IMG/VR virus record: IMGVR_UViG_3300028454_000679
Source of the DNA: a virus
Taxonomy: Duplodnaviria; Heunggongvirae; Uroviricota; Caudoviricetes
Length of the DNA: 64,000 bases
Strand: one strand, 5' to 3'
Shown: positions 11,168 through 45,445 of the stretch, one piece after another
How the letters are laid out: every line of letters starts with the position of its first letter
How positions within the stretch are numbered: the first letter of the stretch is position 1
Program-made: the position numbers and the translations under genes
Notes under the pieces: generated by a model
What the model was told of the DNA's origin: nothing
The model's input: only the letters and a program-made list of their open reading frames with translations
Database searches by the model: none

Positions 11168-11893
11168 ATGAAAACAATAGCAATAGCAAGCCAAAAGGGT
11201 GGTGTAGGTAAAACAACCACAGCCTTGGAACTCTATGACTGCTTAAAAGTTGCTGGTAAGTCTTGTTTATTCATAGACTTAGACCAACAGTGCAATGCAA
11301 CATCAACACTCGCTAACTTTCCTGACAACTGTAATACTATATATGACGTGCTCAAGAAAAACTGTGTAGCCAAACAAGCACTCCAAGGCGATATAATCCC
11401 TGGCAATCCATTACTCGCTTCAATTGAGTATGAACTCTCGTCAGTTATAGGTGGTGCGTTACGTCTAAAGCAGGCCCTTGCTGGATTAGACTACGATTAC
11501 TGCATAATAGACACGCCACCAAACTTAGGCATATACCTAATAAGTGCACTCATAGCTGCTACAGATGTTATAATACCAGTTAAGGCAGATGTATTCTCAA
11601 TCGAAGGGCTCTCAAACATACTAACGACAGTCAATGAAGTTAAAGAGAACTTCAACCAATCACTAAACATAATGGGTATACTTTTAACAAACTATGACCA
11701 GCGAAGGGAACTCGACCGGAAGATATGGAACACACTACACTATACAAAAATAGATTACCCGGTGTTCAATACCAAAGTACGAGTATGCCAAGACATAACA
11801 AAATCATGGAACAGTAAACAATTACTCTCTGAATACAATCCCAAGTGTAAGGCATATGAAGACTACTCAAAACTAGTAAAGGAGATAATTTAA
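11168..11893 (+). CDS. parA: ParA/Soj-family partition ATPase
   Basis: Deviant Walker A KGGVGKTT, then IDLDQQCN...IIDTPPNLG. 241 aa. RBS GGAGG. Located downstream of the repeat array. Confidence 0.85.
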   Translation: MKTIAIASQKGGVGKTTTALELYDCLKVAGKSCLFIDLDQQCNATSTLANFPDNCNTIYDVLKKNCVAKQALQGDIIPGNPLLASIEYELSSVIGGALRLKQALAGLDYDYCIIDTPPNLGIYLISALIAATDVIIPVKADVFSIEGLSNILTTVNEVKENFNQSLNIMGILLTNYDQRRELDRKIWNTLHYTKIDYPVFNTKVRVCQDITKSWNSKQLLSEYNPKCKAYEDYSKLVKEII

Positions 11894-12244
11894 ATGGCAG
11901 GAGATCAAAAAGTAAATGCAGCATCCTTATTGCTCAGCTCATTACAGACTAAAGAGAAGCAAGCACAAGAACCTCTAGCAACTCCAGAGACCTATGAGCA
12001 CGACTTTGGTGATGTAGACATGCAAGACTTGGAGTTTAACAGAGCAAAAGAACGTCAAGCTACACGAAACAAAATCCTACGAGAGGGTGATAACTTCGTA
12101 GTACAATCTGTGGAACGTAGAAGTAAGAAAAAGAACTTCATGTTTCCGGAATCCCTTGCTGAGAAGTTTGTTCAGGAAGCAAAAGCACTAAATGTTTCTC
12201 AAAACGAACTAATAGTCCAAATTCTTGAACAACGTTATAAGTAG
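11894..12244 (+). CDS. ribbon-helix-helix centromere-binding protein (ParG-like partner of ParA)
   Basis: Start codon abuts the parA stop. The C-terminal KKNFMFPESLAEKFVQEAKALNVSQNELIVQILE is RHH/CopG-like. Confidence 0.5.
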   Translation: MAGDQKVNAASLLLSSLQTKEKQAQEPLATPETYEHDFGDVDMQDLEFNRAKERQATRNKILREGDNFVVQSVERRSKKKNFMFPESLAEKFVQEAKALNVSQNELIVQILEQRYK

Positions 12245-12480: not shown

Positions 12481-12539
12481 AGGAGAGTAGTAAGTTCAGC
12501 TAAATAGTGCCGAAGTGACTTTGTAAACCACAAAATATA

Positions 12540-12730
12540 GCAGTAACTGCCAAAATTCTACAAAAAGTACAGAACTTCAGTCAAAATTCTACACACTGAT
12601 TGGTAAAGCTTAGAGTACTCTACAAAATATACGGAACTTCAAAAAATCTACAAAATGAGCAGAACTTCCAAAAACGGGAAGAACAGTGAAAAATGTAGAG
12701 AAAGTTCTTGACAAAATGTAGAGACTATTG
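12540..12730. promoter_or_regulatory. iteron array plus promoter upstream of rep (putative replication origin)
   Basis: At least 3 direct repeats of ~22 bp, TCTACAAAAnnnnCnGAACTTC (12556, 12618, 12646), plus AAAATGTAGAGA x2. TTGACA (12708-12713), 17-bp spacer, TACACT, then RBS GGAGG. Confidence 0.5.
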
Positions 12731-12753: not shown

Positions 12754-13902
12754 ATGAGTAAAGAACCCACAACGTATGAGTATACATCGCTTGCTAAAGA
12801 CAACCTACTAATAAGTGCAAAGTATAGAGCAACACTACTAGAGCTTCGCGTGACCTATGCCTGCTTATTCATGATACAAAACAATAGCTATACAGAGAAA
12901 CCAGACGGCATCTATGTAAGCATGAAAGCAGGTGAACTCCGTGAGCTGATTGGTGCAAACTCGGGCTCTTTCTACAAGAGTCTTCTTCCTGTTGCTCAAA
13001 GTATGACAGCAAGGAGTCTGGGTATGGTAAACCCGGAGAATGAAGAGTTTGACTTTATTAGCCTAATAACTGAAGCCAAGTACAAAGATAGCGTGTTAAC
13101 AGTAGTCTTTAACAATAAGCTAAAGAAACATCTTGTTGCACTAAAGATGGACTATACAACAATACCAAAGCAGTACATAATGAAATTGAACTCAAATTAT
13201 GCTTTTAGGCTTTACGAGATACTGAAGAAGTCATGTTTTTATAGTAAAAGTTACAATGGGGAACGCAATGGCTATTTCCTCATACGACTCTCATTAGCAG
13301 AACTAAAATTGGATTTAGGTGTTGTAAATTCTGCACTAGACTCAGTTCAAAAAGAGCTACGTGGGTCCAAGACACCAAATTATGAAAAAGCTGTACAAGC
13401 CTCATCTGAAAAACTCTATGAGGACTGGTCATCATTCAAACGCTCATGTTTGGACAAGCCAATACGTGAGATAAACCAGAAAACTGACATACACGTTGAG
13501 TATGAAACTCATAGAGCCGGTCTAGGTGGTAAAGTGCATGCAGTGTCATTCACAGTGTATGTAAAAGAACTAGACAAGTCAAATACAACTGAAACCACCG
13601 GACTGACTGATCAAGAGAAGTTTTTATTTCACATGGAAGTTTACAAACTATTTGAGCAATACAAATTATCAATAGACTTCATTCAAAAACTCTCTGAGGC
13701 ATCAGACTACACCCTAGCCACACTCAAGGAAGTTGAAAAGGTTCTTAGAGCCTCTAATGGTGTGGCAAACATAGAGGGATGGCTTCTCAGTGCAGTAAAA
13801 GAGAGGTACTCACTACACCCTGCACAATCCGTAAACTTCAGGCAACGCGAGTATGATTACGATGAACTTGAAAGACGAATGCTTAACCGGAAAAGAACCT
13901 AA
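12754..13902 (+). CDS. replication initiator protein, Rep_3-like (iteron-type plasmid Rep)
   Basis: N-terminus YTSLAKDNLLISAKYRATLLELRVTYACLFMIQNN resembles the Rep_3/RepB motif (ARY.LS..E.RL.L..I..I). Iterons lie immediately upstream. Confidence 0.5.
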   Translation: MSKEPTTYEYTSLAKDNLLISAKYRATLLELRVTYACLFMIQNNSYTEKPDGIYVSMKAGELRELIGANSGSFYKSLLPVAQSMTARSLGMVNPENEEFDFISLITEAKYKDSVLTVVFNNKLKKHLVALKMDYTTIPKQYIMKLNSNYAFRLYEILKKSCFYSKSYNGERNGYFLIRLSLAELKLDLGVVNSALDSVQKELRGSKTPNYEKAVQASSEKLYEDWSSFKRSCLDKPIREINQKTDIHVEYETHRAGLGGKVHAVSFTVYVKELDKSNTTETTGLTDQEKFLFHMEVYKLFEQYKLSIDFIQKLSEASDYTLATLKEVEKVLRASNGVANIEGWLLSAVKERYSLHPAQSVNFRQREYDYDELERRMLNRKRT

Positions 13903-14002
13903 GACTTCGCAAAAGTCTTGTTTAACGAATAGTTAGTTCAAACTGTACACACTTATAAACTATCCTCGTAAGGGTAGCTTGTAAGTGAATACAGAGTGGA
14001 GT

Positions 14003-15076
14003 CTAAAGAGGCTCCACTCGAAGCTTTTTACACCTTGACTTAGAATAGAGTTTTACCTTGTATATGTCTTTTACAGTTGATGGCACTGTCACACTGTAAA
14101 CAGTTTTATTTGGTTTAACGCTCTCACGAGAGAAATGGAAAACATCACCTTGGGGCGTTACAAGTTTAGCAGTTGCAGTGGAATCCTTACACTCAAACCT
14201 AAAAGTGACAGGGTCTTCTGAAGGATGCTTCACACGAAACTTTTTTGTGTGACCATTCCTAAACTGTCCCTTTACAGAGACTTTCTCCACAGTTACACCT
14301 TTAAATGGATAAGTAACTGTTACATCCCCTGGCAAGTAGTTCACGCGGAACACTGCCTTACTCTTTCCCACACACTCAGGGTAAATTGTGTACCCTGAGC
14401 TATCCAAAGTAATACAAGGATATTCTAAATCTGAAACAAATCTTACGGTAACTATGGCACGCTTAACGGCACCGCACTCTTTAACAACTCTAACTCTTTG
14501 CTCCTCACTAGAACACGGAATAAACTCTCCATCCTGGCTGTAATCAAAGTAAGGCTCTGTGCAGTAAACTGGGCTTGAGAGCGTTTCAGTAAAACTAGTA
14601 CCCCTAACAGTCCTAGTGAACTTCTTACCATTCTTACGCTTGAAAACAACAGTGCAGCTTTTACCATCCTTTGCTGGATAAAAGCCATAGGGCACATCCT
14701 GCAAGGTCACCTTACTGCCATTCACACTGTAAAGGTAAGCACTCTTCCCATTGTACTTGCACAGTAATTTACCGCTCGTTGTCAACCTAACTCTAAATGG
14801 TAGGACATCAAAGTACATAAATGCTGGTGTGTAGTTTAGCGGTTCTACAGTATTCGAACACTTCACATCACCTGTTGTCTTTGGACTAGGTTGTGGAGCT
14901 GCTGCAGGAGTGGAGTTTTGAGAAACAGACCCCGAGCACCCTGAGAAAAACATACACACCAACAGAGTTAGAGCTAAAACACGTTTATTTACGACCAAAC
15001 CGATGTTACGGCAACCCAAGATGACCCATTGTAGTATTTTAACACACCTGGTGTGTAAGAAGATGTGTCTACCCAC
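14003..15076 (-). CDS. secreted lipoprotein, beta-rich (Ig-like) hypothetical
   Basis: Lipobox-like LLVCMFFSGC near the N-terminus; rich in T/V/K beta-strand pattern. The true start is probably internal to the listed ORF. Confidence 0.35.
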   Translation of the reverse strand: MGRHIFLHTRCVKILQWVILGCRNIGLVVNKRVLALTLLVCMFFSGCSGSVSQNSTPAAAPQPSPKTTGDVKCSNTVEPLNYTPAFMYFDVLPFRVRLTTSGKLLCKYNGKSAYLYSVNGSKVTLQDVPYGFYPAKDGKSCTVVFKRKNGKKFTRTVRGTSFTETLSSPVYCTEPYFDYSQDGEFIPCSSEEQRVRVVKECGAVKRAIVTVRFVSDLEYPCITLDSSGYTIYPECVGKSKAVFRVNYLPGDVTVTYPFKGVTVEKVSVKGQFRNGHTKKFRVKHPSEDPVTFRFECKDSTATAKLVTPQGDVFHFSRESVKPNKTVYSVTVPSTVKDIYKVKLYSKSRCKKLRVEPL

Positions 15077-15252
15077 AACTGGGATACATTAGTAGGCGCT
15101 GTATTACCAACAACGCAAGGTCCACCCGTTTGGTTCGTTGTAACCTTAGGTGCAGCCTTTACAGAATCAGCCAGGGCTGCTACTGCAAAAAAGGACGCCA
15201 AAAATCCGTAAATGCCTTTTTGAAGAAATTCTTTTCTAGACATACCTGACAT
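14989..15252 (-). CDS. small secreted protein with twin-arginine-like (RK) signal peptide; candidate Tat substrate
   Basis: Start refined to MSGMSRKEFLQKGIYGFLASFFAVAALADSVKA-AP. This gives S-R-K-x-F-L-x-K, a hydrophobic core and an AxA cleavage site. GGAGGAA RBS. Begins 2 nt after the tatC stop. Confidence 0.4.
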   Translation of the reverse strand: MSGMSRKEFLQKGIYGFLASFFAVAALADSVKAAPKVTTNQTGGPCVVGNTAPTNVSQLWVDTSSYTPGVLKYYNGSSWVAVTSVWS

Positions 15253-15253
15253 A

Positions 15254-15991
15254 CTAACATTCCTCCGAACTACGTTTTTCAATAAATGAACAAATAAAAA
15301 TACTAAACTGATACAGGAGTACAATAGGCACTGCAACTGCAATCTGGCTCACAACATCAGGCGGTGTTATAATTGCAGCTAATACAAAAGCAAGTACAAT
15401 TACAACCTTTCGTACCTTTCGTAAAAATGCTGTATGGACAAGACCTATCTTGCACAACACAACATTCACTAAAGGTATCTCACAGATAATACCTATTGCT
15501 AATCCCAATCCCACAAACAATCCCACAAAACTGTCCACACTAACAAGTGGTGTGACACCAAAGGCGGAATACCCCGTACCAAGTAAGAATTGTATGGTAA
15601 ATGGGATGAGCCACCTAAATGATGCATACATACCTGCCACAAAGACTCCATACCCAATGAAGGTGAAAAAGAACACCTTAAGCACTTTTACATTAAAAGC
15701 AGGTAAGACAAAAGCCAATACATTGTAAATGAGCAATGGTAAAGTGAGTAGGAAACTCAGAGTGAGACTGAGCTTTATCTCCTGCATAAATAGTGACTGT
15801 GGTGTTAAATACATAAATCTGAATCCAGCATTGTCCCCCACAAGCAGTATGCTTTGTATAACGGTCTTCCTGAACACGTAGGCTATCATAAACACAGCTA
15901 TAAGGAACACTGCGCAGATAAACAGCCTATGAGTTAGCTCCATCAGATGTTCCTGAGGATTCATCTGATTTACTGGTTTCTTCCTCTTCAT
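15254..15991 (-). CDS. tatC: Sec-independent protein translocase TatC
   Basis: Six predicted TM segments. N-terminal LMELTHRL motif and C-terminal ITPPDVVSQIAVAVPIVLLYQFSIF, which matches the TatC TPPDxxSQ..LA.P...LYE motif. Confidence 0.8.
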   Translation of the reverse strand: MKRKKPVNQMNPQEHLMELTHRLFICAVFLIAVFMIAYVFRKTVIQSILLVGDNAGFRFMYLTPQSLFMQEIKLSLTLSFLLTLPLLIYNVLAFVLPAFNVKVLKVFFFTFIGYGVFVAGMYASFRWLIPFTIQFLLGTGYSAFGVTPLVSVDSFVGLFVGLGLAIGIICEIPLVNVVLCKIGLVHTAFLRKVRKVVIVLAFVLAAIITPPDVVSQIAVAVPIVLLYQFSIFICSFIEKRSSEEC

Positions 15992-16121
15992 TTTCCTTCA
16001 AAGCCTTTCTGAAAATCTTTAAAGAGTCTCCTGCACCCTTTGCTAACTTAGGTAATTGAGTTGCCCCTCCTAAAAAGACTATAATTAACAAAACAATTAA
16101 CAATTCTGTTGTACTAACCAT
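15927..16121 (-). CDS. tatA: TatA/E-family translocase subunit
   Basis: Start refined to MVSTTELLIVLLIIVFLGGATQLPKLAKGAGDSLKIFRKAL: TM helix, Gly hinge and amphipathic helix. Acidic S/T-rich tail. Confidence 0.65.
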   Translation of the reverse strand: MVSTTELLIVLLIIVFLGGATQLPKLAKGAGDSLKIFRKALKENEEEETSKSDESSGTSDGANS

Positions 16122-16359
16122 TACTATCCTCCTTATTTGCAGTGTCCTCAGTGGTGGATACTGCATCTGCTAAATCCTGTTTGACCTCGTTAAGCGTATC
16201 CTTGACTTCATTTATAGGTACAGAGAGGGTCTCTGCACCCTCTCTGTAAGCTTTCATAGCTTTACCCAACTTCTCTGCGAACTGAGCTATCTGCTCTGGA
16301 GAGAAGAATATATGACAGCAAACAAGGATAACTATTAATTCTGGAACTCCAATACTCAT
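16114..16359 (-). CDS. tatB: second TatA/TatB-family subunit
   Basis: MSIGVPELIVILVCCHIFFSPEQIAQFAEKLGKAMKAYREG has TatA/B topology (TM, hinge FSP, amphipathic helix) with a longer charged tail. Confidence 0.55.
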   Translation of the reverse strand: MSIGVPELIVILVCCHIFFSPEQIAQFAEKLGKAMKAYREGAETLSVPINEVKDTLNEVKQDLADAVSTTEDTANKEDSNG

Positions 16360-16368
16360 ATGTCACCT

Positions 16369-19185
16369 CTACTGTCCTTGTGGTTTTTGATCATGTGTAG
16401 GTGTTCCGCCGGAACCAGAGCCAGTACCTGTGCCTGAGCTAGAGCTAGAGCTAGAGCCAGAGTCTGAGCTAGAGCTAGAGCCTCCACCATCATGAACCAC
16501 GCCGTCTTCGTATGTTCCTCCTGTTTCATGACCACCATTAGAGTTGATGCTTGACCATGCAGGGAAAGTTACATCAGATGTACTCGGAGTAGCATCCTGT
16601 AAACTATTAGCACTACCACTTACGGACAGAGTTATTGCATCAAGAATGATTTTTTGACTGTCAAATCGATTCTCAGTAGGCACTAGTGAAACTGTAAGTG
16701 TGGAACCAGAACCTGACACAGTCGCAATAGCTGGGATAGACGCAGCACCAAAAGTGAGGTCCACATTGGTTAAATCATCGTAAGTTATACCATACTGTTT
16801 TAAATCAATAGTAACTTTACTGGGGTTTACGACAGTAGGAGTTAGAGTATGATTGAAGCCACTAGTAACAACTATGGTTTGGGAATACTTATTCAACTGT
16901 GCAATGTAAGTACTGATAGCAGTCCAGATTGCCTTAGAGTCTTCATTCAAAGAAGTTGTAGCATCCATTAAAACATCCTGTGTATCAGTAACATACTTCA
17001 CAAGCTTCTGTGTGGCTTGTGCTAAATTTGTTTCATACTTGCTGGACAACTCTGTGTTTGCTTGATTCAGTTCAGTAACAGCATCAGACAGCTGACTATT
17101 AATTTCCGTAATAGAAGCATTGATGGTATTTAATTCTTCAGTTGTACTCTTGCTAAAGGTATCAAACTCAGAGTAGTTATGTTCAATTTTATTATTAAGT
17201 GCTACATCATCCTCATGACGCTTGGTAGCTTCTGAAGAGATTGATGTATTCAACTCATTCTTCGTCTGCTCCCTCTTTTCCTCTGTATCCTTTGCAAGGT
17301 CCTGTAAAGAGGTGGTAAGCTGTGTCTGAAGTTTCTCACGCTCTTGAGCATTCAGAGTGTCACTGTTTGCTAAAGTAGTAGTTAACTCATTGTAGATACG
17401 CTCACGCTCACTTTGACTTAAGCTGTTGCTCTCATTAATAGTATTTGTTAAAGAATTGAGTAATTCGGTTCTCTCCTGCTCATTAGTCTGTCTATCATCA
17501 GAGAGAGCAGTAATCAGCTCATTGTAGATTCTTTCGCGCTCATCAGCAGATGCTTTATCAAGACTCTGCAACTCATTAGTTAAATCCTGATACTTTGCTG
17601 CCTGCTCCTGTTCCAACTGAGCTACAGACTGGTTCAAAGCTTCCTGCAAATGAGTTTGCTCTTCCTTAGAAGCATTGCTTAAGTTAGAGATAGCTGTAGA
17701 AAGCTCGTCATGCATTTTAGCACGCTCTTCTTTGGAAACGTTACTTAAATTAGTGACAGATTCTGCCAGCTGTGACTGTAACTTCTCACGCTCTGCTTTA
17801 GAAGAGTCACCTAAATTCTCAATGGTCTTGGAAAGGTCGGAGTACATGGACGCTCTTTGGTCAGCCGTCTGTCCATTGAGTTCAGTGATAGATGACATAA
17901 TCTCACGATACATAGCATCCTTTGAAGCCTCAGATGTTTTATCCATACTGTTGACAAGATTCATCATTTCACTGTACTGTGAACTCAACTTGTCAACATC
18001 CTTACTACTTGCTCCATCACCATTGTTGCTATGGCTAACACCATTAATCTGTTCAACAATAGTATTGATTTTTTGAGAGACTTGGGAATCCTCTTTCGCA
18101 ACTTCCTGTTTCAGTCTCTCTAAAGCTGCACTTGTTCCCTTATTCCCTTCCTCAGCCTTAGCTACCTCTGCGTTGAGCTTGTCTGATAACTGATTGATAG
18201 AGTTAGAAACACTCGTCACTGAATTACTTGCGCTATTCAGTGATGTTTTTACGGAGTTGATTTCTTTATTTAGACTCTCATCAACCTGACCTAAAGCGGA
18301 GAGTTTAGCTTCTAAATCCCCAATCTTCTGAGAGTAATCCTTGATCATTGTGGCATAGGATTCCTTAACTTCAGTTACGCTCTTCACGATGTTATTTACT
18401 GTTTCGTTGTATTCGGTCTTTGAAAGATTGTTAGCAGATGACAGTAAACCGTCAAGTCCATTGGAACCATCAGAACCGTTGGAGCCGCTGGAGCCGCTGG
18501 AACCATCAGAACCATTTGAGCCATTGGAACCGTCCTTACCATCTTTACCCTTTACGAAGGAAATGGATTTCAAGATAGTTTCAGAAGACTTAAAGAACTT
18601 CTCTACCTGCTCAGGTGACAACTTTTCTAAATCAGGAGCTACACCATCACTAGTAGTCTTCTCCAACTCTGCAACCTGCTTTGCTAAAGTCACGATAGAA
18701 TCACGATTCTCATTCATTTGTGATTGAATAGCGGAGTAATCGTAAACCTGTGTGTATCCTGCTGCTTTCTCTTCTAGTGCCTCCGGCTTAATATCTGCTA
18801 CAGCATCAGATGCAACATTGGCAAGGTAACCCTTCGCCATTGCGGTAAGCTTACCATTTTCAAATTGAATTAAACCTTGTCTGTTCAATTCATCAACTTT
18901 GCCTTTTATGGCTTGTTTAATGGCTTGCTTATCAGATTCACTCAAAGAAACACCATTAGACTCCATAGTATCAATAGCTTTTTCATAAAGCCAGTCCACA
19001 ATAGAGTTTAAGTCTCCTTCCTTGATTTCATCCAAATTGTTGTAAGCTTCCATCTGCATTGCATCTGACAGATTTAGTGCTGACACAACTTTAGAGTTGT
19101 GGAACATTATAACTGTCATAAGAGCTAATGCACAAACCAAGGCAACACTAATTCCCGCATACAAAATCCTTTGCTTTTTTCGCAT
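16369..19185 (-). CDS. large membrane-anchored coiled-coil protein with collagen-like G-S-N repeats and S/G-rich tail
   Basis: 938 aa. N-terminal TM, extensive heptad-like E/K/L/Q/S segments, GSNGSNGSDGSSGSSGSNGSDGSNGLDG, and a C-terminal GGGSSSSSDSGSSSSSSSGTGTG. Internal and antisense ORFs are artifacts. Confidence 0.5.
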   Translation of the reverse strand: MRKKQRILYAGISVALVCALALMTVIMFHNSKVVSALNLSDAMQMEAYNNLDEIKEGDLNSIVDWLYEKAIDTMESNGVSLSESDKQAIKQAIKGKVDELNRQGLIQFENGKLTAMAKGYLANVASDAVADIKPEALEEKAAGYTQVYDYSAIQSQMNENRDSIVTLAKQVAELEKTTSDGVAPDLEKLSPEQVEKFFKSSETILKSISFVKGKDGKDGSNGSNGSDGSSGSSGSNGSDGSNGLDGLLSSANNLSKTEYNETVNNIVKSVTEVKESYATMIKDYSQKIGDLEAKLSALGQVDESLNKEINSVKTSLNSASNSVTSVSNSINQLSDKLNAEVAKAEEGNKGTSAALERLKQEVAKEDSQVSQKINTIVEQINGVSHSNNGDGASSKDVDKLSSQYSEMMNLVNSMDKTSEASKDAMYREIMSSITELNGQTADQRASMYSDLSKTIENLGDSSKAEREKLQSQLAESVTNLSNVSKEERAKMHDELSTAISNLSNASKEEQTHLQEALNQSVAQLEQEQAAKYQDLTNELQSLDKASADERERIYNELITALSDDRQTNEQERTELLNSLTNTINESNSLSQSERERIYNELTTTLANSDTLNAQEREKLQTQLTTSLQDLAKDTEEKREQTKNELNTSISSEATKRHEDDVALNNKIEHNYSEFDTFSKSTTEELNTINASITEINSQLSDAVTELNQANTELSSKYETNLAQATQKLVKYVTDTQDVLMDATTSLNEDSKAIWTAISTYIAQLNKYSQTIVVTSGFNHTLTPTVVNPSKVTIDLKQYGITYDDLTNVDLTFGAASIPAIATVSGSGSTLTVSLVPTENRFDSQKIILDAITLSVSGSANSLQDATPSTSDVTFPAWSSINSNGGHETGGTYEDGVVHDGGGSSSSSDSGSSSSSSSGTGTGSGSGGTPTHDQKPQGQ

Positions 19186-19232: not shown

Positions 19233-20498
19233 CTATTTATCTTCACTTTCTACATATGTGAAAGTTGCAGACTTAGCTATGCTGTCCAGAACCTTTGTTG
19301 ACAAAGCCATACGCTTTACAAAGTCCTCACCCTTCATAAACTCAGAGTCGTAGAGGGAGTAAACATCATCTGTACTAGACTCTTCGTATGATGAACCCTT
19401 TACAAGATCCTTTACGTAATTAGTTATCTCTTTCTTGGAGATAGTAGCATTCTCCTCTTCGGCAATCTTTAAAGAGATTGCTAAGTTTACTAAAGTGGAA
19501 TCCAAACGCTCTCTGGAATCCTGAACAAACTCCTCGTAAGTCTGACCACCGGACTGCTCGAGATACTCCTGTAGGGAGTTATATTGACTAGCATACATCT
19601 TAGTGTACTGATCAAGGTAAATTGCTAACTCCTGGTCTTTGACATCCTGTGAAATCTCAACGTCGGAGTTCTCTACAATCTCTGCAAGTAAAGTGGTACG
19701 TTTTGCCTGCTTCTCGTGGTAAGTATTGTAATCATTAGCAAAATCCTCACAATACTTCATAAACTCGTTAACACTCTTATAAGATGTGTTAGCTATAAGA
19801 ATATCGTCAGAAATAGTCTTATGGTCATACTTGATAGAACGCTCTGCACTTACAAGTGTGATTTTAAAGTCAGCCTTCTTCCCTGCAACATCGGAAGGTA
19901 GTAAGTTCTCATGTTCCTCCTTTTCAGGCGTTTCACCATCAAATGGGTCGAATTCCTCAGGAAGCTTCATACTAAACTTAAGAGGCTCTTTTGTTCCCAC
20001 TTTGTATCCTGTGAGACGTGCATCCACACCATGGCAGTATGCATCCTGTCCTAATTCATAATCAGGCAAAGTCATAGAACTGCCATTAAAAGTCTGACCA
20101 TCCACTGTTACTTCTATGTTGACTTTGAGCAAATCGCCAGTCTCAATCTTCTCACCAGCAGGCAATGTGTAGGTAGTGTCAAGCTGGCTAAGAACATAGT
20201 CGGCGTAATCCTCCTTTGTGAGTGTATCGTCATCCTTGTCAATTGTAACAGTTAAACCCTTATACTTACCAAGCTTTTTAACACAGTCAGCTAAATTGTA
20301 CTCAATAGCTTTCTTCGGTCTTCTGAAAGTACTCGTACTTTCAGATTTTTCCTTAACAACTTTCTTAGTGTCTTTACCATCTTTAAAGTACACGACACAG
20401 TTCATTAAAACTGATAGAATCAGGAAGGTGGCAAGTACTACGTTTGCTACTTTAAGAATTCTCACCTGCTGACTTAATTCTGTAATTCTTTTCTTCAT
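19233..20498 (-). CDS. trigger-factor-like protein (FKBP-type PPIase plus TF C-terminal-like domain), membrane anchored
   Basis: N-terminal TM, then ...GDLLKVNIEVTVDGQTFNGS (FKBP/trigger-factor PPIase pattern GD.V.ID..G..DGE.F.G), then a helical C-terminal region. Confidence 0.4.
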   Translation of the reverse strand: MKKRITELSQQVRILKVANVVLATFLILSVLMNCVVYFKDGKDTKKVVKEKSESTSTFRRPKKAIEYNLADCVKKLGKYKGLTVTIDKDDDTLTKEDYADYVLSQLDTTYTLPAGEKIETGDLLKVNIEVTVDGQTFNGSSMTLPDYELGQDAYCHGVDARLTGYKVGTKEPLKFSMKLPEEFDPFDGETPEKEEHENLLPSDVAGKKADFKITLVSAERSIKYDHKTISDDILIANTSYKSVNEFMKYCEDFANDYNTYHEKQAKRTTLLAEIVENSDVEISQDVKDQELAIYLDQYTKMYASQYNSLQEYLEQSGGQTYEEFVQDSRERLDSTLVNLAISLKIAEEENATISKKEITNYVKDLVKGSSYEESSTDDVYSLYDSEFMKGEDFVKRMALSTKVLDSIAKSATFTYVESEDK

Positions 20499-41092: not shown

Positions 41093-41530
41093 TTATGCAG
41101 TTGTTGCTTGTACAGATGATGCTAAGCAACCAGATTTGCAACCTGAGCTGCAGCTAGAGTTGCAACCACCACAAGAGGAACACCCTGAGCAAGAGGTGCA
41201 GCCACCGGTGCAACCTGAACAACCACCAGTGCAATCAGCTCTACAAGAAGCAGTGCAATATGTGCAACCGTTTTCGCAACCGCCTGTGCACTGCCAGTCA
41301 CACCTGCCTCCACAGCCACCACAGCGTACATCACAGGCAGCACAATCAAACCAGCAGCGATTTCCACAACCATCGCATTCTGCATGAACATCCGTACTTA
41401 TATTAACTAATGCTGCTAGTCCTGCTGCAGTTGCTACCACTTCCTTCAGTTTGCTCTTTCTACTTGTGTCGTTCTGCTCACTAAAGTTATCATTAGAGGG
41501 AGTCTTATCTTTTTCTTCCATATAAAACAC
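41093..41530 (-). CDS. Cys-rich secreted precursor-like protein 1 (CxxC/CxC repeats)
   Basis: Signal-like KLKEVVATAAGLAALVNISTDVHA-E, then 42 Cys in ~95 aa. C-terminal [29 protein letters not shown]. Confidence 0.5.
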   Translation of the reverse strand: MFYMEEKDKTPSNDNFSEQNDTSRKSKLKEVVATAAGLAALVNISTDVHAECDGCGNRCWFDCAACDVRCGGCGGRCDWQCTGGCENGCTYCTASCRADCTGGCSGCTGGCTSCSGCSSCGGCNSSCSSGCKSGCLASSVQATTA

Positions 41531-41581
41531 CTTCCTATTTTTATTATAGTAATACCTGATATAATAGGTTTGATACTGTAA

Positions 41582-42214
41582 CTATGCAGCCGTTATAGAT
41601 ACAGAGGAGGCTAAGCAACCAGATTTGCAACCACTTCCACAGCTAGTATTACATCCACCGCAAGAGGAGCAACCTGTGCAACCGGTACAACCTGAACAAG
41701 AAGTGCAACCTGAGCAAGAGGTACAGTCACCAGTGCAACTACCAGTACAATCATCTCTACACCTACCATTGCAACTGTAATCGCAACCACCACAACTCCT
41801 GCCGCACCCATCAGAACATACAGACCCACAGCCACTGCATCCATCACAGCTGGTACATCCACTATCACAACCACCGCAGCCACCGCAGCCACCACAGCCG
41901 CCGCATCCGCCGCAGCTACCACCACAGCCACTGCAACCGTCACAGCTGGTACATCCACTGGCACATACAGAGCAGCCTCCGCAGCCATCGCAACCACCAC
42001 AGCCTACTCCGCAGCTACCACCACAGTTAGAGCCACAACCTACTGCACATGCTTGATTACATGCTGCATTTACTTTTGTATCAACTGACACAACAGCCGC
42101 TATGCCTGCCGCTATCAGTGCTGCTTTTTTTAGTTTATTTTCACCACTCAGTTTAAAATTCTCTTGTTGGTCAGTTTGTAAATCGAATTGGGATTCCTTT
42201 GACATAATAATCAC
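41582..42214 (-). CDS. Cys-rich secreted precursor-like protein 2
   Basis: Signal-like [25 protein letters not shown], long (CGG)n / CxxC repeats, and the same C-terminal motif ...[23 protein letters not shown]. Confidence 0.5.
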
Positions 42215-42235
42215 CCTTTCTAACTTTTGATTTCT

Positions 42236-43612
42236 TTAGTGTGATTTAATGCATATTTCCCCTTCATTAACTTTTCCGCCCATAGAAAGTGTAAGCTCCC
42301 TCAGTGCTTCGTAATCCTTCTCACCAATAAGTGGTACAGCCCATTCTCTCGGACACCAGAGGTCAAGCACTTCTGTACGACCTGTTTCTTTGTAATAATG
42401 GTTCCAATAGTAAACTATGGCAAGTGAGCGCACCTTTTGAACATCACAGATAAATGTGCACCGTTTGTCAACAGTTCCGTTAATCTGATAATTGTAAGCA
42501 GAACACCAAGAGCATCCTTTTGCTACGGGGCAGTAAAAGCATTCATCTGTTGATTGAGATCTCCTCGTAATGGCACTCATACATGTGATACAGTCCTGTT
42601 CACATTTCTTCTGCGCAATTCCTGTCCAAACATCACCAATTATAATAGGTGGTTGGTCCAAACCGAGCGATGATTCCATATACCGTAAACATGGAAACAG
42701 CTTACCATCAGGATCGCACGCCAACATCCTCGCATTACCGCCGCACCAATTATCATTGTCTGTTTCCTCCATAGGCATACCCCAAGTGTTATCCAAGAAA
42801 GAAATTGCATAATCCTCTTGGTCAAATTCGCTTTTACGAATCCAATCTGAAAACTCCTTACACTGCTCCCAGACTACCCTAGCATGCTCTGGTTTCCAAA
42901 CATCCTCGAAAACCTCATTGGCATTTATATCTTCATACCCATCGTAAATCATCTGTTTGAGACAATCTGCAAAGTACTTAATATTTTCCGGTGCCATAGT
43001 GATTTTGGAACCCATATAGTATCCTCTAGCCATCCAATCCTGTGCTGCATCATGAGCCAAATCGTATGATGGTCGACCGTCAGGGAACCTTCGACAAGCA
43101 TCATGGAGTTCTTTTGTTCCATCCACCGTGACGGAAAAAGAAATATTACGGAAGTTCTTTTGTAAAAATGCCTGAACCTTGGGGTCTCTGTATGCAACAC
43201 CATTGGAGCAGATAGAAATAGAAAACTTTTCTGCCCAAGGATGATTCATCTCAATGGCTCTTTTCCTAAAATAGTCCACTGTTTTATCAATAAGAGCTAT
43301 CTCAAGGAAAGGCTCCCCTCCAATAAACTCCAGAATAATTGCTGGTGCATCTCCAAGATACTCCCTAAAACCATTTTGACCAGTCAAAACATCATCAACT
43401 AATCTAAATGCAACCTCTTCCGACATTCGTCTTGTACCCTTATTTGTTTGGTAACAATATGAGCATGCAAGTGAACAAGCATCTGTAACTTGCCAGGTTA
43501 CAGATCTTGCCATATTTGCTATACCTCTTTCTGTATCGCCACCCAACTCTGGGTACATTCTTGCAATCCAATCCTGAAATTGAATCAATTGTTTCCTTTT
43601 CTTTGTTGCCAT
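42236..43612 (-). CDS. radical SAM / SPASM-domain peptide-modifying enzyme
   Basis: CSLACSYC (Cx3Cx2C). C-terminal auxiliary cluster motifs CGGNARMLACDPDGKLFPC and CFYCPVAKGCSWC. Start refined to MATKKRKQ. Confidence 0.8.
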   Translation of the reverse strand: MATKKRKQLIQFQDWIARMYPELGGDTERGIANMARSVTWQVTDACSLACSYCYQTNKGTRRMSEEVAFRLVDDVLTGQNGFREYLGDAPAIILEFIGGEPFLEIALIDKTVDYFRKRAIEMNHPWAEKFSISICSNGVAYRDPKVQAFLQKNFRNISFSVTVDGTKELHDACRRFPDGRPSYDLAHDAAQDWMARGYYMGSKITMAPENIKYFADCLKQMIYDGYEDINANEVFEDVWKPEHARVVWEQCKEFSDWIRKSEFDQEDYAISFLDNTWGMPMEETDNDNWCGGNARMLACDPDGKLFPCLRYMESSLGLDQPPIIIGDVWTGIAQKKCEQDCITCMSAITRRSQSTDECFYCPVAKGCSWCSAYNYQINGTVDKRCTFICDVQKVRSLAIVYYWNHYYKETGRTEVLDLWCPREWAVPLIGEKDYEALRELTLSMGGKVNEGEICIKSH

Positions 43613-43623
43613 AATTTTTCCTT

Positions 43624-44028
43624 TCAGTTTACTGCATAAGAAGATGCCATACATCCTGTCTTGCATCCCCCACCACAGCTAGTATTACATCCACCACAGG
43701 AAGAACATCCGGAGCAACCTGTGCAGCCACCAGTACAGCCACTACCGCATCCGCCTCCACATCCTGTGCAGTCACCGCAGCCAGTTCCACAGTTGTCCCA
43801 GCAACCCAGACTACAGTTTTCCATACAGCGGTGGCCACAGCCATCACAGCCTGGGTAATGAATGGTACCACCACCTGAGTTTCCTCCACCACCAGTACCA
43901 CCACCGGATTCACCAGTACCAGGGCTACTACGACCACCGGCACACAGCTGTGTGCACCCACTACCGCACCCACAACCTCCAGGACCGACGACAGTTCCAG
44001 CCTGTGTATCAAACTTTAGCTGATACAA
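43624..44028 (-). CDS. Cys-rich precursor-like protein 3 (no obvious signal peptide)
   Basis: G/S-rich N-terminal half, then CxxC repeats and the shared C-terminus [26 protein letters not shown]. Confidence 0.45.
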
Positions 44029-44214
44029 TGATGCTAAAGCTGCTGCGGAAAAGACTATATTCTCTAACTTATCATTAAATTTCTTACCACCACCATCATC
44101 TTTTAACGTATACCCTCCAGATTATTCCACAATCATCTTGACTAGTTACAAACTCAACCCAAATTCATAAATTATAATTTAAATGAGGATGTCACACATC
44201 CTGCTGAGCACCCT

Positions 44215-44790
44215 CTAATTCTTTGCGCCGCTGTTACACCCTGTACCACAGGAAGCAGAACACCCAGTGCAGCCATTACACTGCCCTATACATGAACCCA
44301 CGCACAAACCTGTGCAAGCTCCGCCGCAATGTGTTACTTCTGTTTTATTGTTATTATTAACCTTACCTCCAGAACCGCCTGGTAAATCGTAGGCTACACC
44401 GTTGTAAGTTCCCTTAAATCCACCTCTGTTAGAAGCAGTATCAGCATCAGCATCCAACTGACTGCAAATACTGTTGATATCAGCAGCGTTAAATCCAGGT
44501 GGGATCTTTCCGCCTTGATGTGTATAGTTAGAACCTAACTTATTCTCAAAGGCAAACCCGGTGTTATTGTCAGCACCTTTTACAATCTGTAAAAGGCAGT
44601 CAATGGTTGCTTTACCTACCTGTGCAGTAATGGGCTGTCCTTTCTGAGGAGTAGGTGATGGTAATGCATACGCTGAATTAGTTGCATACTGATTGACCTT
44701 ACCAGGACCGGCTCCTCTTTTGTTTAAGGTTGTTGTAATTCTCGCTTTCATGGCAGCTAACTCCCCAGGTGTCATTGCCATATAAATCAC
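44215..44790 (-). CDS. hypothetical protein with Cys-rich C-terminal tail (related to the precursor family)
   Basis: The C-terminal HCGGACTGLCVGSCIGQCNGCTGCSASCGTGCNSG follows an unrelated ~150-aa domain. Confidence 0.4.
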   Translation of the reverse strand: MIYMAMTPGELAAMKARITTTLNKRGAGPGKVNQYATNSAYALPSPTPQKGQPITAQVGKATIDCLLQIVKGADNNTGFAFENKLGSNYTHQGGKIPPGFNAADINSICSQLDADADTASNRGGFKGTYNGVAYDLPGGSGGKVNNNNKTEVTHCGGACTGLCVGSCIGQCNGCTGCSASCGTGCNSGAKN

Positions 44791-44796
44791 CCCTTC

Positions 44797-45126
44797 CTAA
44801 ACTTCGGTTTGTTGTAAGTATTGATAGACACAGATTTGATTGTCATCTGTAAATTCATACTTTTCTGGAACTCTCAGTTCGCCAGAATCTAAATTCTCAG
44901 TGAACAAGTTAACAGCAACACCTAATTGAAAAATATTATTTTGTACACATGCATCTACAGCCCTATCCATTAGTCGCCTGAAAATATCACTGTCTAATGC
45001 ATCTGCACTATCAAGATGCTTTGATAGGAAAAAAGAAACATTTGAGCATGCTTTCGTGAACTCAAAAAATCCTCTATCAAGCACATATTTGTAACTCTCT
45101 GGAACATCTATTACATTCTCAACCAT
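44797..45126 (-). CDS. hypothetical protein
   Basis: 109-aa ORF. Confidence 0.3.
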   Translation of the reverse strand: MVENVIDVPESYKYVLDRGFFEFTKACSNVSFFLSKHLDSADALDSDIFRRLMDRAVDACVQNNIFQLGVAVNLFTENLDSGELRVPEKYEFTDDNQICVYQYLQQTEV

Positions 45127-45142
45127 ACTATCACCTTTACAC

Positions 45143-45445
45143 TTAGTAAGTAACAGTTAACTCGTTGGTACCATAACTCAGATTCCAACCTTTAACCTTG
45201 CTCTGTTTGTCCTCCGGAATATACTGCATAACCATTGCATCCTTTGCCTGTTCCCAAGCAAGCTTATCTGCAAACATGCTCTCCTGGAATGTTGCAAAAA
45301 TTGGGCTTGACAATGCTTTGTCATCTCTATCAAGCTGATGCTCAGTTAAAAACTCTTTTACTATCTGTCGTTTGGTTTCGTACTTCATCTGCTTGAGCTG
45401 AATGTCTGCCACTATCTCTTCATTAACCTTAATTACTTCGTTCAT
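45143..45445 (-). CDS. hypothetical protein
   Basis: 100-aa ORF. Confidence 0.3.
   Translation of the reverse strand: MNEVIKVNEEIVADIQLKQMKYETKRQIVKEFLTEHQLDRDDKALSSPIFATFQESMFADKLAWEQAKDAMVMQYIPEDKQSKVKGWNLSYGTNELTVTY

What the first reader, a model, noticed from the sequence alone, without database searches (positions are those of the whole stretch)
14989..16359. Complete TatA/TatB/TatC twin-arginine translocase on the element, followed by a small protein with an RK twin-arginine-like signal
Seen in sequence: three consecutive minus-strand genes encode two TatA/B-type subunits (N-terminal TM helix, hinge, amphipathic helix) and a six-TM TatC with the TPPDVVSQ...LYQFS motif. The next ORF begins 2 nt after the tatC stop and encodes MSGMSRKEFLQKGIYGFLASFFAVAALADSVKA-AP, which has an S-R-K-x-F-L-x-K pattern, a hydrophobic core and an AxA site, followed by a lipoprotein gene. 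Established knowledge: Tat exports folded, often cofactor-bearing proteins, and KR/RK variants of the RR motif can be Tat-competent. Inference: a mobile element supplying its own Tat machinery plus a putative cargo is unusual. Together with lepB, a trigger-factor-like PPIase, a flotillin and SH3b proteins nearby, it suggests the element remodels envelope protein export.
Basis: partly seen in the sequence, partly recalled or inferred. Interest (0 to 1): 0.7.

Follow-up and report, generated by a model that had tools for sequence, protein, structure and literature searches.

The report
Plasmid-borne Tat exporter with one-arginine cargo
A giant gut-bacterial plasmid carries its own folded-protein export machine (Tat). 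Its receptor has lost the residue that normally grips the second "twin" arginine, and the small protein encoded next to it has lost that arginine too, so the two look like a matched private export pair.

Summary
On the minus strand lie two TatA-family genes (16359-16114 and 16121-15927), a TatC gene (15991-15254; Pfam 147 bits, TIGR00945 142 against a cut-off of 132.7) and an 87-aa ORF (15252-14989) that starts 2 nt after the tatC stop. A lipoprotein gene follows, and next comes a Rep_3/ParA replicon. The element is at least 234 kb.

New here:
- **Small-protein family.** The 87-aa protein belongs to about 50 sequence clusters. All carry [ST]-R-x-[DE]-F-L-K-K, a short Gly-rich hydrophobic core, a basic residue before A-x-A, and a roughly 50-aa phage-fibre-like domain. 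The first Arg never varies. The second position is K, L, A, R, M, S, G or E. Members with RR pass the TAT_signal model.
- **Linkage.** In 34 of 34 loci with at least 3.5 kb of upstream DNA, the small-protein gene lies 0-3 kb downstream of tatA-tatA-tatC. These are human-gut contigs of 240-269 kb.
- **Receptor change.** These TatCs form one clade that lacks Glu103, which is almost invariant elsewhere and forms a salt bridge with the second arginine in E. coli. They keep His12, Glu15 and Phe94.

Best reading: a retuned Tat system dedicated to plasmid cargo. "TatB" is not established. This is a new variant of a known kind; interest about 0.6.

The parts
16114..16359 (-). tatA-family gene 1. The longer paralogue, 81 aa, with hinge 'FFSPEQI' in place of the usual FG hinge. 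It may act like TatB, but this is not shown.
   Evidence: PF02416 scores 26.5 bits against a cut-off of 21. The best NCBIfam hit is a TatA/E model at 36 bits; TatB (TIGR01410) scores 26 against 56.5. The order long paralogue, short paralogue, tatC recurs in the related loci.
15927..16121 (-). tatA-family gene 2. A canonical TatA, 64 aa, reading ...FLGGATQLPKLAKGAGDSLKIFRKAL.
   Evidence: PF02416 scores 53.6 bits and TIGR01411 scores 50.8. An AAGGAGG ribosome-binding site lies upstream, and the start overlaps the tatA1 stop by 8 nt.
15254..15991 (-). tatC, 245 aa. It keeps His15, Glu18 and Phe94 (own numbering), which match E. coli His12, Glu15 and Phe94. It has Val103 where E. coli has Glu103, and the whole TM2-TM3 loop (PAFNVKVLKV) has no acidic residue.
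   Evidence: PF00902 147 bits; TIGR00945 142, above 132.7; 4B4A E=6.6e-27. Loop and clade analysis.
15683..15685 (-). Codon for Val103 of TatC, the position of the almost invariant Glu103 of E. coli TatC.
   Evidence: Alignments. The role of Glu103 is described in PMC13323110 and PMC5539426.
14989..15252 (-). Candidate cargo, 87 aa. A Tat-type signal peptide lacking the second arginine, followed by a roughly 54-aa domain resembling those of phage fibres.
   Evidence: Family of about 50 clusters. Always 0-3 kb downstream of tatC. Members with RR pass TIGR01409. Model pLDDT is about 90 for residues 50-80. Fold hits are phage fibre proteins, with weak E-values.
15154..15252 (-). Predicted signal peptide, residues 1-33. 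The S-R-K-E-F-L-Q-K motif is at 15217-15240. A hydrophobic core follows, then V-K-A with predicted cleavage before A-P.
   Evidence: Read directly from the sequence. Family conservation of the motif, the basic residue before the cleavage site and A-x-A.
14003..14998 (-). Lipoprotein gene with lipobox FFSGC. Conserved only in the closest sub-lineage (L006, and the partial downstream ORF in L007); start codon uncertain.
   Evidence: No Pfam or NCBIfam hit.
16369..19185 (-). 938-aa protein directly upstream of tatA1. It has an N-terminal transmembrane anchor, a collagen-like Gly-X-Y stretch and long coiled coils. In five other lineages a homologue lies between tatC and the small protein.
   Evidence: a collagen hit below the Pfam cut-off and apolipoprotein-like hits; family 5.
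19233..20498 (-). Trigger-factor-like PPIase/chaperone with an N-terminal transmembrane anchor and no ribosome-binding domain. Probably acts outside the cytoplasm.
   Evidence: Trigger_C and FKBP_C. TIGR00115 scores 85 bits, matching from profile position 106 onward.
12754..13902 (+). Rep_3 replication initiator, 100 bp from the end of the tat-small-lipoprotein gene string.
   Evidence: Rep3_N E=3.5e-22 and Rep3_C. The closest PLSDB relatives are Lachnospiraceae megaplasmids from Butyrivibrio and Roseburia, 28-31% identical.
11168..12244 (+). parA, followed by a small gene in the position of a partition partner (unannotated).
   Evidence: AAA_31 E=1.7e-44 for ParA. The second gene gave no Pfam hit. 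The same pair lies next to Rep_3 in L006.
41093..45445 (-). CXXX-repeat radical-SAM module: four Cys-rich repeat proteins, the maturase (42236-43666) and two small accessory genes. In the eight other lineages sampled, Cys-rich repeat proteins lie just downstream of tatC and the small protein, and the maturase too in the seven with enough downstream DNA. These proteins may be additional Tat cargo.
   Evidence: TIGR04115 scores 419.8 against a cut-off of 350. Synteny. Signal-like N-termini.

Best explanation
The window comes from a large Rep_3/ParA plasmid-like element of a Gram-positive gut or rumen bacterium, probably Lachnospiraceae-like. It encodes its own Tat translocase: two TatA-family paralogues and a TatC.

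The TatC belongs to a monophyletic clade whose signal-peptide binding site has changed. It keeps the residues that in E. coli hold the first arginine and the consensus Phe (His12, Glu15, Phe94). It has lost Glu103, which forms a salt bridge with the second arginine.

The gene translationally coupled to tatC encodes a small pre-protein whose signal peptide mirrors that change. S/T-R-x-D/E-F-L-K-K is conserved, but the second 'twin' position is free.

Proposed mechanism (inferred, not shown):
1. The small protein folds, and perhaps forms trimers, in the cytoplasm.
2. Its one-arginine signal docks on the plasmid's own TatC.
3. TatA protomers assemble and the folded protein crosses the membrane.
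4. Signal peptidase cuts after V-K-A. The element also encodes a LepB.
5. The protein joins a plasmid-encoded surface module: an anchored coiled-coil/collagen-like protein and radical-SAM-matured Cys-rich repeat proteins.
For: Shown:
- Tat genes pass curated HMMs and the PDB comparison.
- The genes are tightly packed and overlapping, with ribosome-binding sites.
- About 50 small-protein clusters all carry R-x-[DE]-F-[LI] near the N-terminus. The second position is K 27, L 8, A 5, R 4, M 2, S 2, G 1, E 1 in the regex tally, plus two more K by eye.
- 39 of 40 parsed members have Lys or Arg between a short Gly-rich hydrophobic core and A-x-A. These are the features the Tat review lists for Tat signals (PMC7317946).
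- RR members P0132, P0139 and P0148, and RK member P0134, exceed the TIGR01409 cut-off.
- In 34 of 34 loci with at least 3.5 kb of upstream DNA, tatA-tatA-tatC lies 0-3 kb upstream on the same strand. These represent about 10 lineages whose TatC is 35-49% identical to the window's.
- No other ORF in the window or the loci has this motif followed by a hydrophobic core.
- All 108 conventional TatCs in the tree have Glu at position 103. All 26 element-clade TatCs have V, M, H, I, K or R there, and they form one neighbour-joining clade with no Glu-bearing member. Two further clade members outside the tree have L and F.
- 56 of the top 150 clusters at 50% identity lack Glu103, including all of the top 20.
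- The window's TatC has no acidic residue anywhere in that loop.

From the literature:
- R1 bonds to Glu15 through a water molecule and stacks on Phe94. R2 forms a salt bridge with Glu103. Phe sits in a pocket formed by Phe94, Leu9, His12 and Leu13 (PMC13323110).

Covariation across 10 lineages:
- TatC with a hydrophobic or neutral residue at 103 pairs with K or R at signal position 2 (5 of 5).
- TatC with K or R at 103 pairs with L, M, A or G (5 of 5).
Against: - There are no expression or export data.
- The window's own 87-aa protein hits no Tat-signal model.
- Its hydrophobic core is Phe-rich and could engage Sec.
- A roughly 54-aa cofactor-less protein is an atypical Tat passenger.
- In E. 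coli the loss of Glu103 inactivates TatC, so function here is inferred only from conservation.
- The covariation splits along two subclades, so it may reflect only one or two evolutionary events.
- RR-bearing members also sit beside Glu103-less TatCs (L053). The second arginine is therefore tolerated rather than excluded.
- Most of the element, at least 170 kb, was not examined for other cargo.
- The host is unknown, and so is whether it has its own Tat system.
Confidence: 0.6

Rival explanations
1. The Tat system's main cargo is the set of radical-SAM-matured CXXX-repeat proteins. These would be cross-linked in the cytoplasm and so unable to pass through Sec. The small protein would be a co-cargo or an accessory piece of the same surface structure. 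This extends the best explanation rather than excluding it.
For: In the eight other lineages sampled, Cys-rich repeat proteins lie directly downstream of tatC and the small protein, and the TIGR04115 maturase follows in the seven with enough downstream DNA. The window holds the same module 26 kb away. The secreted-type CXXX proteins have long charged N-regions with a conserved x-K-L-[KR]-[KN] motif and weakly hydrophobic Ala/Val/Thr cores. Some carry RR or R-K in register with the small protein's motif. The window's 41093-41530 reads S-R-K-S-K-L-K-E against S-R-K-E-F-L-Q-K, and L047 reads R-R-S-K-L-K-K. A cultured CXXX system, Anaerococcus pAPRE01, has an ABC-transporter ATP-binding gene beside the maturase and no Tat. 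No ABC transporter gene was annotated in the Pfam gene tables of L009 and L010. The other clusters were not scanned for one.
Against: Many of these N-termini have no arginine in register and lack the consensus Phe. The conserved N-terminal motif could instead be a leader recognised by the maturase. In the window the module is not adjacent to tat. The chemistry and the location of the modification are unknown.
Confidence: 0.3
2. The small protein is an ordinary Sec substrate. Its N-terminal motif is a relic of a Tat-signal ancestor, and the Tat genes serve cargo encoded elsewhere on the element or in the host.
For: The window's protein has no RR and no Tat-signal HMM hit. Its hydrophobic core is fairly hydrophobic. 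[quoted passage not shown] The element encodes a LepB.
Against: A relic would not keep R, D/E, F, L, K, K and the basic residue before the cleavage site across about 50 clusters that are 31-68% identical. Nor would it stay tightly linked to tatC in every lineage. No alternative cargo with a Tat motif was found in 64 kb of window or in the 20-kb flanks of relatives.
Confidence: 0.17
3. The TatC clade without Glu103 no longer works as a translocase receptor. It is a decaying copy, or it has taken on another membrane role. Alternatively, the small protein is an uncleaved membrane-anchored partner of the complex rather than a passenger.
For: E103A and E103K are transport- and binding-negative in E. 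coli (PMC13323110 and PMC5539426). Weak N-terminal hits of 23 of 42 family members to NF038009, 'Tat system-associated protein' (18 bits or less against a cut-off of 100).
Against: The clade is large and old, with at least 50 clusters at 50% identity. It keeps intact ORFs and the residues corresponding to E. coli His12, Glu15, Phe94, Pro97, Glu170 and the PPD motif. It keeps two TatA paralogues in a fixed order with overlapping genes. In E. coli, more hydrophobic signal peptides suppress E103K, so transport without Glu103 is mechanistically possible (PMC5539426). A-x-A is conserved in the small-protein family.
Confidence: 0.1

Closest known systems
E. coli TatABC with S-R-R-x-F-L-K signal peptides (cryo-EM of the TatBC-substrate complex, PMC13323110)
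   Same: A TatC core with the same fold-level alignment, TatA-family partners, and the residues for the first-arginine and Phe pockets retained. The cargo motif matches at the S/T, R1, F, L and K positions, and A-x-A cleavage is present.
   Different: Glu103, the salt-bridge partner of R2, is absent, and the window's copy has no acidic residue in the TM2-TM3 loop. Cargo position 2 is variable. No paralogue can be identified as TatB. The gene order is long TatA paralogue, short TatA paralogue, TatC. The genes are plasmid-borne in a Gram-positive-type element.
Bacillus subtilis TatAd-TatCd with its co-encoded substrate PhoD (recalled from my own knowledge, not checked here)
   Same: A Gram-positive Tat translocase encoded next to, and apparently dedicated to, one substrate gene.
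   Different: PhoD is a large metal-dependent enzyme with a canonical RR signal. That system is chromosomal and has a single TatA. Here there are two TatA paralogues, a roughly 54-aa cofactor-less passenger and a changed receptor site.
Natural Tat signals lacking one arginine, such as Salmonella TtrB (Hinsley et al. 2001, cited in PMC7317946; the 'KR' sequence is from my own memory)
   Same: A natural signal with only one of the two arginines.
   Different: Those are isolated exceptions served by a normal TatC that has Glu103. Here a whole cargo family varies at position 2, including L, A, M, G and E, and the cognate TatC clade has changed as well.
'Hodor' conjugative megaplasmids of human-gut Bacillota (PMC12934698)
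   Same: A very large Rep_3/ParA element from gut samples that carries its own protein-export and surface-display genes: a trigger-factor-like gene, class B sortase and large surface proteins.
   Different: Hodors carry SecY/SecG/SecE, and that paper does not mention Tat at all. They have 44.6-47.1% GC and average 357 kb. This window has about 40% GC, no Sec genes within the window, and a Tat plus CXXX-repeat module.
CXXX-repeat radical-SAM peptide systems (TIGR04115), such as Anaerococcus prevotii pAPRE01
   Same: The maturase is a clear member of the family (419.8 bits).
   Different: The cultured example pairs the maturase with ORFs of about 40-56 aa and an ABC-transporter ATP-binding gene. 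Here the targets are 130-230-aa proteins, some with signal-like N-termini, and the genes next door are Tat genes.

Membership tests
TatC (PF00902 / TIGR00945) | Full-length match to the family HMM above the curated cut-off | tested here: met
   PF00902 scores 147 bits against 25.1, covering profile positions 1-208 of 208. TIGR00945 scores 142 against 132.7.
TatC (PF00902 / TIGR00945) | Six-transmembrane-helix core that can be aligned with solved TatC structures | tested here: met
   Aligns with residues 4-233 of 4B4A, E=6.6e-27, and also matches the E. coli cryo-EM chains. A hydropathy scan gives overlapping segments that I read as roughly six blocks, which is not an independent count. No 3D model of this TatC was made.
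TatC (PF00902 / TIGR00945) | Conserved signal-binding residues His12, Glu15, Phe94 and Glu103 (E. coli numbering) | tested here: not met
   The residues matching His12, Glu15 and Phe94 are present. Position 103 is Val, and the loop PAFNVKVLKV has no acidic residue. All 26 clade members in the tree lack Glu103.
TatA/E (PF02416 / TIGR01411) | HMM match; an N-terminal transmembrane helix, a hinge and an amphipathic helix | tested here: met
   Both proteins exceed the Pfam cut-off (26.5 and 53.6 bits against 21). The second scores 50.8 against 53.9 on TIGR01411, just below. The first is weak on all NCBIfam models.
TatB (TIGR01410) | Match to the TatB equivalog model above its cut-off, and scoring better than the TatA/E models | tested here: not met
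   The first paralogue scores 26.1 bits against 56.5, and it scores higher on TatA/E models (36.1 and 28.7). The second shows only weak hits to TatB models. A TatB-like role stays possible, because the two paralogues are conserved in a fixed order.
Twin-arginine signal peptide (TIGR01409 / PF10518) | Two consecutive arginines within S/T-R-R-x-F-L-K | tested here: not met
   The window's protein reads S-R-K-E-F-L-Q-K. In the family tally only 4 of 52 have RR.
Twin-arginine signal peptide (TIGR01409 / PF10518) | HMM match above the cut-off | tested here: inconclusive
   The window's protein gives no hit. Homologues P0132, P0139, P0148 and P0134 score 22.6, 26.5, 27.2 and 17.2 bits against a cut-off of 16.7. 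Ten of 42 members hit at E<=1.
Twin-arginine signal peptide (TIGR01409 / PF10518) | Other Tat-signal traits: a weakly hydrophobic Gly-rich core, a basic residue before the cleavage site, and A-x-A | tested here: met
   39 of 40 parsed members have K or R between the hydrophobic core and A-x-A. The cores are short and rich in Gly, Ala and Leu. The window's copy has V-K-A before the predicted cleavage site. The criteria come from PMC7317946.
Twin-arginine signal peptide (TIGR01409 / PF10518) | Export that depends on Tat and not on Sec | not testable with these tools
   This needs genetics or export assays.
Rep_3-type plasmid / gut Bacillota megaplasmid (Hodor-like class) | Rep_3 initiator plus ParA partition genes on a contig longer than 200 kb; own sortase B and trigger-factor-like genes | tested here: met
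   Rep3_N and Rep3_C, and ParA. A 234,325-bp contig carries the identical tat region. SrtB and the trigger-factor-like gene. No phage hallmark protein was seen in the Pfam scans of the window. PHROGs was not run.
Rep_3-type plasmid / gut Bacillota megaplasmid (Hodor-like class) | Membership of Hodor groups G1 or G2: SecYEG operon, giant >7300-aa surface protein, 44.6-47.1% GC | tested here: not met
   No Sec genes and no giant ORF in the 64-kb window. GC is about 40%. The rest of the element was not seen.
CXXX-repeat radical-SAM maturase system (TIGR04115) | Maturase above the cut-off, with adjacent Cys-rich CXXX-repeat targets | tested here: met
   419.8 bits against 350. Four Cys-rich repeat proteins lie at 41093-44790.

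The most novel reading that the evidence does not exclude
These plasmids run a private 'one-arginine' Tat pathway. A TatC clade has dropped the Glu103 partner of the second arginine and has co-evolved with its cargo's signal. Where TatC has Lys or Arg at 103, the signal has a non-basic residue at position 2. Where TatC has a neutral residue at 103, the signal has Lys or Arg. This would give an export channel separate from the host's Sec and Tat traffic. The plasmid would use it to move pre-folded or pre-cross-linked building blocks across the membrane and build a new surface structure. Those blocks would be the fibre-tip-like mini-protein and the radical-SAM-matured Cys-rich repeat proteins.
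Probability: 0.3. Interest if true: 0.8.

Novelty: new variant of a known kind. Interest (0 to 1): 0.62.

Why it matters
Glu103 of TatC and the arginine pair are treated as nearly universal marks of Tat transport. Here a natural, diverse and monophyletic TatC clade lacks Glu103, and its dedicated cargo has correspondingly freed the second arginine. That is an evolutionary test of the R2-Glu103 salt bridge seen in the 2026 cryo-EM structure. It is also a ready-made system for asking what the minimal Tat targeting code is.

There is a practical consequence. Tat-substrate predictors that require RR would miss this cargo; the curated Tat-signal models run here gave no hit on the window's protein.

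The finding also adds a second example, after the Sec-carrying 'Hodor' plasmids, of very large gut Bacillota plasmids that bring their own protein-export hardware. It links Tat to a CXXX-repeat radical-SAM system for which I found no papers.

Tried and rejected
- **Near-identical DNA.** Megablast of 13900-20600 found nothing in PLSDB or in the phage collection.
- **TatC by tblastn.** The best plasmid and phage records are at most 32% identical. The few 'phage' hits are short or bacterial-looking contigs.
- **Exact look-up of the 245-aa TatC.** This failed because public gene calls start at Met17. The 229-aa form was found.
- **IMG/VR scans.** TatC found no relatives. The small-protein alignment found only two weak fibre-like hits.
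- **GTDB genome scan** with the small-protein patterns found nothing, so the host is not identified.
- **The 42-sequence alignment** was too diverse for pattern scans.
- **Other RR, RK or KR signals in the window.** Only poor candidates turned up: the YkuD lipoprotein's KRRIAL and the protein at 48399-48944 with LRKALF.
- **Foldseek against the PDB** gave nothing significant for the small-protein model. The viral library gave only weak E-values of 2.5e-3 or worse, although the hits are consistently phage fibres.
- **Promoter and terminator scan** was no better than shuffled sequence.
- **Strict pairing of RR cargo with Glu103-bearing TatC** was rejected. RR member P0139 sits beside a TatC with Phe at that position.
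- **Lachnospiraceae megaplasmids with the closest Rep_3** (pNP243 and the Roseburia sp. 831b plasmid) have no tat genes near rep.
- **Literature.** A search for 'CXXX repeat' with 'radical SAM' returned no papers. No paper listed in the 'huge phages'/TatC search contained the term 'huge phages'.
- **Not run:** PHROGs, PADLOC, and a structure prediction for TatC.

Full report
**1. What is at the coordinates**

The minus strand between 19185 and 14003 carries a tight string of genes:
- a 938-aa membrane-anchored coiled-coil protein with a collagen-like stretch (19185-16369);
- tatA-like 1 (16359-16114, 81 aa);
- tatA-like 2 (16121-15927, 64 aa), which has its own AAGGAGG site and whose ATG overlaps the tatA1 stop by 8 nt;
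- tatC (15991-15254, 245 aa), which overlaps the end of tatA2;
- an 87-aa ORF (15252-14989), whose ATG follows the tatC TAG after one base;
- a lipoprotein gene (about 14998-14003, lipobox FFSGC).

Both TatA-like proteins exceed the Pfam TatA_B_E cut-off, at 26.5 and 53.6 bits against 21. TatC matches PF00902 end to end (147 bits, E=8.7e-43) and passes the NCBI equivalog model TIGR00945 (142 against 132.7). It aligns with the solved A. aeolicus and E. coli TatC chains.

The label 'TatB' is not confirmed. The longer paralogue scores 26 bits on TIGR01410 (cut-off 56.5) and slightly higher on TatA/E models.

**2. What the element is**

One hundred bases beyond the lipoprotein gene lie a Rep_3 initiator (12754-13902) and a parA gene followed by a small partner gene (11168-12244). 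Repeat arrays lie upstream of both. The identical tat region sits on a 234,325-bp metagenome contig.

The rest of the window encodes:
- signal peptidase I, a class B sortase, a YkuD L,D-transpeptidase, a flotillin and an SH3_3 protein;
- a trigger-factor-like protein with an N-terminal membrane anchor and no ribosome-binding domain;
- a methyl-accepting chemotaxis protein and a PilZ protein;
- four tRNAs and a frameshifted thyA;
- a CXXX-repeat radical-SAM system.

The Pfam scans showed no phage structural genes. The nearest Rep_3 proteins in PLSDB belong to megaplasmids of Butyrivibrio and Roseburia, at 28-31% identity. I read the element as a megaplasmid of a motile Gram-positive gut or rumen bacterium, probably Lachnospiraceae-like. 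The host itself was not identified.

A 2026 preprint describes a comparable class, the 'Hodor' megaplasmids of human-gut Bacillota. These have Rep_3/ParA and carry their own SecYEG, trigger factor and sortase B. That paper does not mention Tat, and its elements have a higher GC content (PMC12934698).

**3. The small protein belongs to a family with a conserved one-arginine Tat-type signal**

A profile search found about 50 full-length clusters of 80-110 aa. All have, near the N-terminus, [ST]-R-x-[DE]-F-L-K-K. The Arg and the Phe never vary. The second 'twin' position in the regex tally is K (27), L (8), A (5), R (4), M (2), S (2), G (1) or E (1), and two members whose motif the regex missed or misread also have K.

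The motif is followed by a short hydrophobic core rich in Gly, Ala and Leu. A Lys or Arg comes before the cleavage site in 39 of 40 parsed members, and then A-x-A. These are the traits the Tat literature lists for Tat rather than Sec signals (PMC7317946).

The four RR or near-consensus members tested exceed the curated TAT_signal_seq cut-off, at 17-27 bits against 16.7. The window's own protein gives no hit. So the signal descends from, and still looks like, a Tat signal in which only the first arginine is required.

**4. The mature part of the small protein**

The mature roughly 50 aa (…GTTAPxNxxxLWIDTSxxGVLKYWNGSxW…) also occur in proteins whose N-terminal sequences resemble phage tail fibres (their annotations were not checked). 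The AlphaFold model has pLDDT about 90 for residues 50-80. Its best fold matches, although weak, are trimeric phage fibres, tail collar proteins and receptor-binding proteins. A fast-folding trimeric mini-domain would give a reason for using Tat. That step is inference.

**5. Linkage to tat**

In 34 of 34 loci where the small-protein gene has at least 3.5 kb of upstream DNA, tatA(long)-tatA(short)-tatC lies 0-3 kb upstream on the same strand. These include human-gut contigs of 240-269 kb. They represent about ten lineages whose TatC is 35-49% identical to the window's. No other ORF in the window or in these loci carries the motif followed by a hydrophobic core.

**6. The receptor has changed in step with the signal**

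In an alignment of 134 TatCs, all 108 conventional sequences have Glu at the position of E. coli Glu103. All 26 element-linked TatCs have V, M, H, I, K or R there. They form a single neighbour-joining clade that contains no Glu-bearing member. Two further element-linked TatCs outside the tree have L and F.

The window's TatC has Val103, and its TM2-TM3 loop (PAFNVKVLKV) has no acidic residue at all. The residues matching E. coli His12, Glu15, Phe94, Pro97, Glu170 and the PPD motif are kept.

A search of 1.84 billion cluster representatives with a clade profile found that all of the top 20, and 56 of the top 150 clusters at 50% identity, lack Glu103. The clade is therefore large.

The 2026 E. 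coli TatBC-substrate structure shows three contacts (PMC13323110):
- R1 is bonded through a water molecule to Glu15 and stacks under Phe94.
- R2 forms a salt bridge with Glu103.
- The consensus Phe sits in a pocket formed by Phe94, Leu9, His12 and Leu13.

Phe94 and Glu103 are 'almost completely invariant' across life, and E103A and E103K are inactive. However, more hydrophobic signals can suppress E103K (PMC5539426). The pattern here fits that structure closely: R1, Phe and their pockets are kept, while R2 and its partner are lost.

Across ten lineages, TatCs with a hydrophobic or neutral residue at 103 pair with K or R at signal position 2. TatCs with K or R at 103 pair with L, M, A or G. This split follows two subclades, so it is suggestive rather than statistically independent.

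**7. Wider module**

In the eight other lineages sampled, CXXX-repeat Cys-rich proteins lie just downstream of tatC and the small protein. The TIGR04115 maturase follows in the seven lineages with enough downstream DNA, and the anchored coiled-coil protein lies between tatC and the small protein in five. In the window the CXXX module lies 26 kb away, at 41093-45445.

The secreted-type CXXX proteins have conserved x-K-L-K-K N-regions and weak hydrophobic cores. A few carry R-R or R-K in register with the small protein's motif. A cultured CXXX system has an ABC-transporter ATP-binding gene next to the maturase instead. These proteins may therefore be further Tat cargo, but the evidence is only suggestive.

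**8. Verdict**

The Tat genes are real and complete in the Gram-positive sense (TatA-family plus TatC). The downstream ORF is the best cargo candidate. The system is a distinct variant of Tat whose receptor and signal have changed in matching ways, carried by a family of very large gut plasmids.

- **Shown:** gene identities, family motif, synteny, loss of Glu103, monophyly of the clade.
- **Inferred:** that the system is active, that the small protein depends on it, that the passenger folds before export, and that the module builds a surface structure.

I rate the Tat-dependent dedicated-cargo reading at about 0.6, and overall interest at about 0.6.

Noticed in passing
window 41093-45445 (-): A complete CXXX-repeat radical-SAM system. 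It has four Cys-rich repeat proteins (about 6-21% Cys), a maturase at 42236-43666 (TIGR04115, 419.8 bits) and two small accessory genes. The targets are 130-230-aa proteins rather than short peptides. Two of them (41093-41530 and 41582-42214) have signal-like N-termini.
   Followed up: partly
window 55657-55860 (-): The thymidylate synthase gene is split by a frameshift at an A-run (…CTGAAAAATTTGG…). The N-terminal 45 aa and the remaining 253 aa are in different frames. This could be an assembly error, a pseudogene or programmed slippage.
   Followed up: partly
window 19233-20498 (-): The trigger-factor-like protein has an N-terminal transmembrane helix and lacks the ribosome-binding domain; its TIGR00115 match begins at profile position 106. 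It looks like a membrane-tethered foldase acting outside the cytoplasm rather than a ribosome-associated chaperone.
   Followed up: partly
window 23940-24025, 29315-29388, 29884-29956, 34574-34642 (-): Four tRNA genes on the element: Ser-TGA, Met-CAT, Gln-TTG, and a fourth found only by Rfam and not by ARAGORN.
   Followed up: partly
window 10717-11110 and 12534-12668: A roughly 197-bp unit is duplicated in tandem upstream of parA. Two 45-nt repeats spaced 90 nt apart lie upstream of rep. These may be a centromere-like site and iterons.
   Followed up: no
window 2863-7795 (-): Four paralogous genes (2863-3612, 3615-4679, 4682-5461, 6752-7795) share an N-terminus of the type MLTEEQVKALELKGLTYWQ. 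At least one carries a DUF285-like repeat region. They are interrupted by an AAA_5 (MoxR-like) ATPase gene. A DUF2201 metallopeptidase/VWA protein is encoded nearby.
   Followed up: no
window 48399-48944 (-) and 34885-35658 (-): An acidic, Thr/Asp/Glu-rich secreted protein ends in …PKTADS, a hydrophobic helix and RKER. This looks like a cell-wall sorting signal and could be a substrate of the element's class B sortase.
   Followed up: no
window 24826-25362 and 40623-41141 (-): Two paralogous zinc-ribbon proteins (MTKIRCQ.CGGE.LH.EGA…) are encoded 15 kb apart. Function unknown.
   Followed up: no
L010 8669-9484; L047 4929-5744: The human-gut relatives carry an ArdC-like gene (ArdcN plus a metalloprotease domain in L010; the L047 homologue was assigned by blastp family only) just upstream of the tat genes, with ParA about 9 kb upstream. 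ArdC is an anti-restriction protein typical of conjugative plasmids, which fits a plasmid identity.
   Followed up: no
TatC clade: Many Glu103-less TatCs have Asp or Glu three residues earlier (P-A-F-D/E-x-K-x), at the position of E. coli Tyr100. The window's copy has Asn there. The acidic residue may have moved rather than been lost outright.
   Followed up: partly
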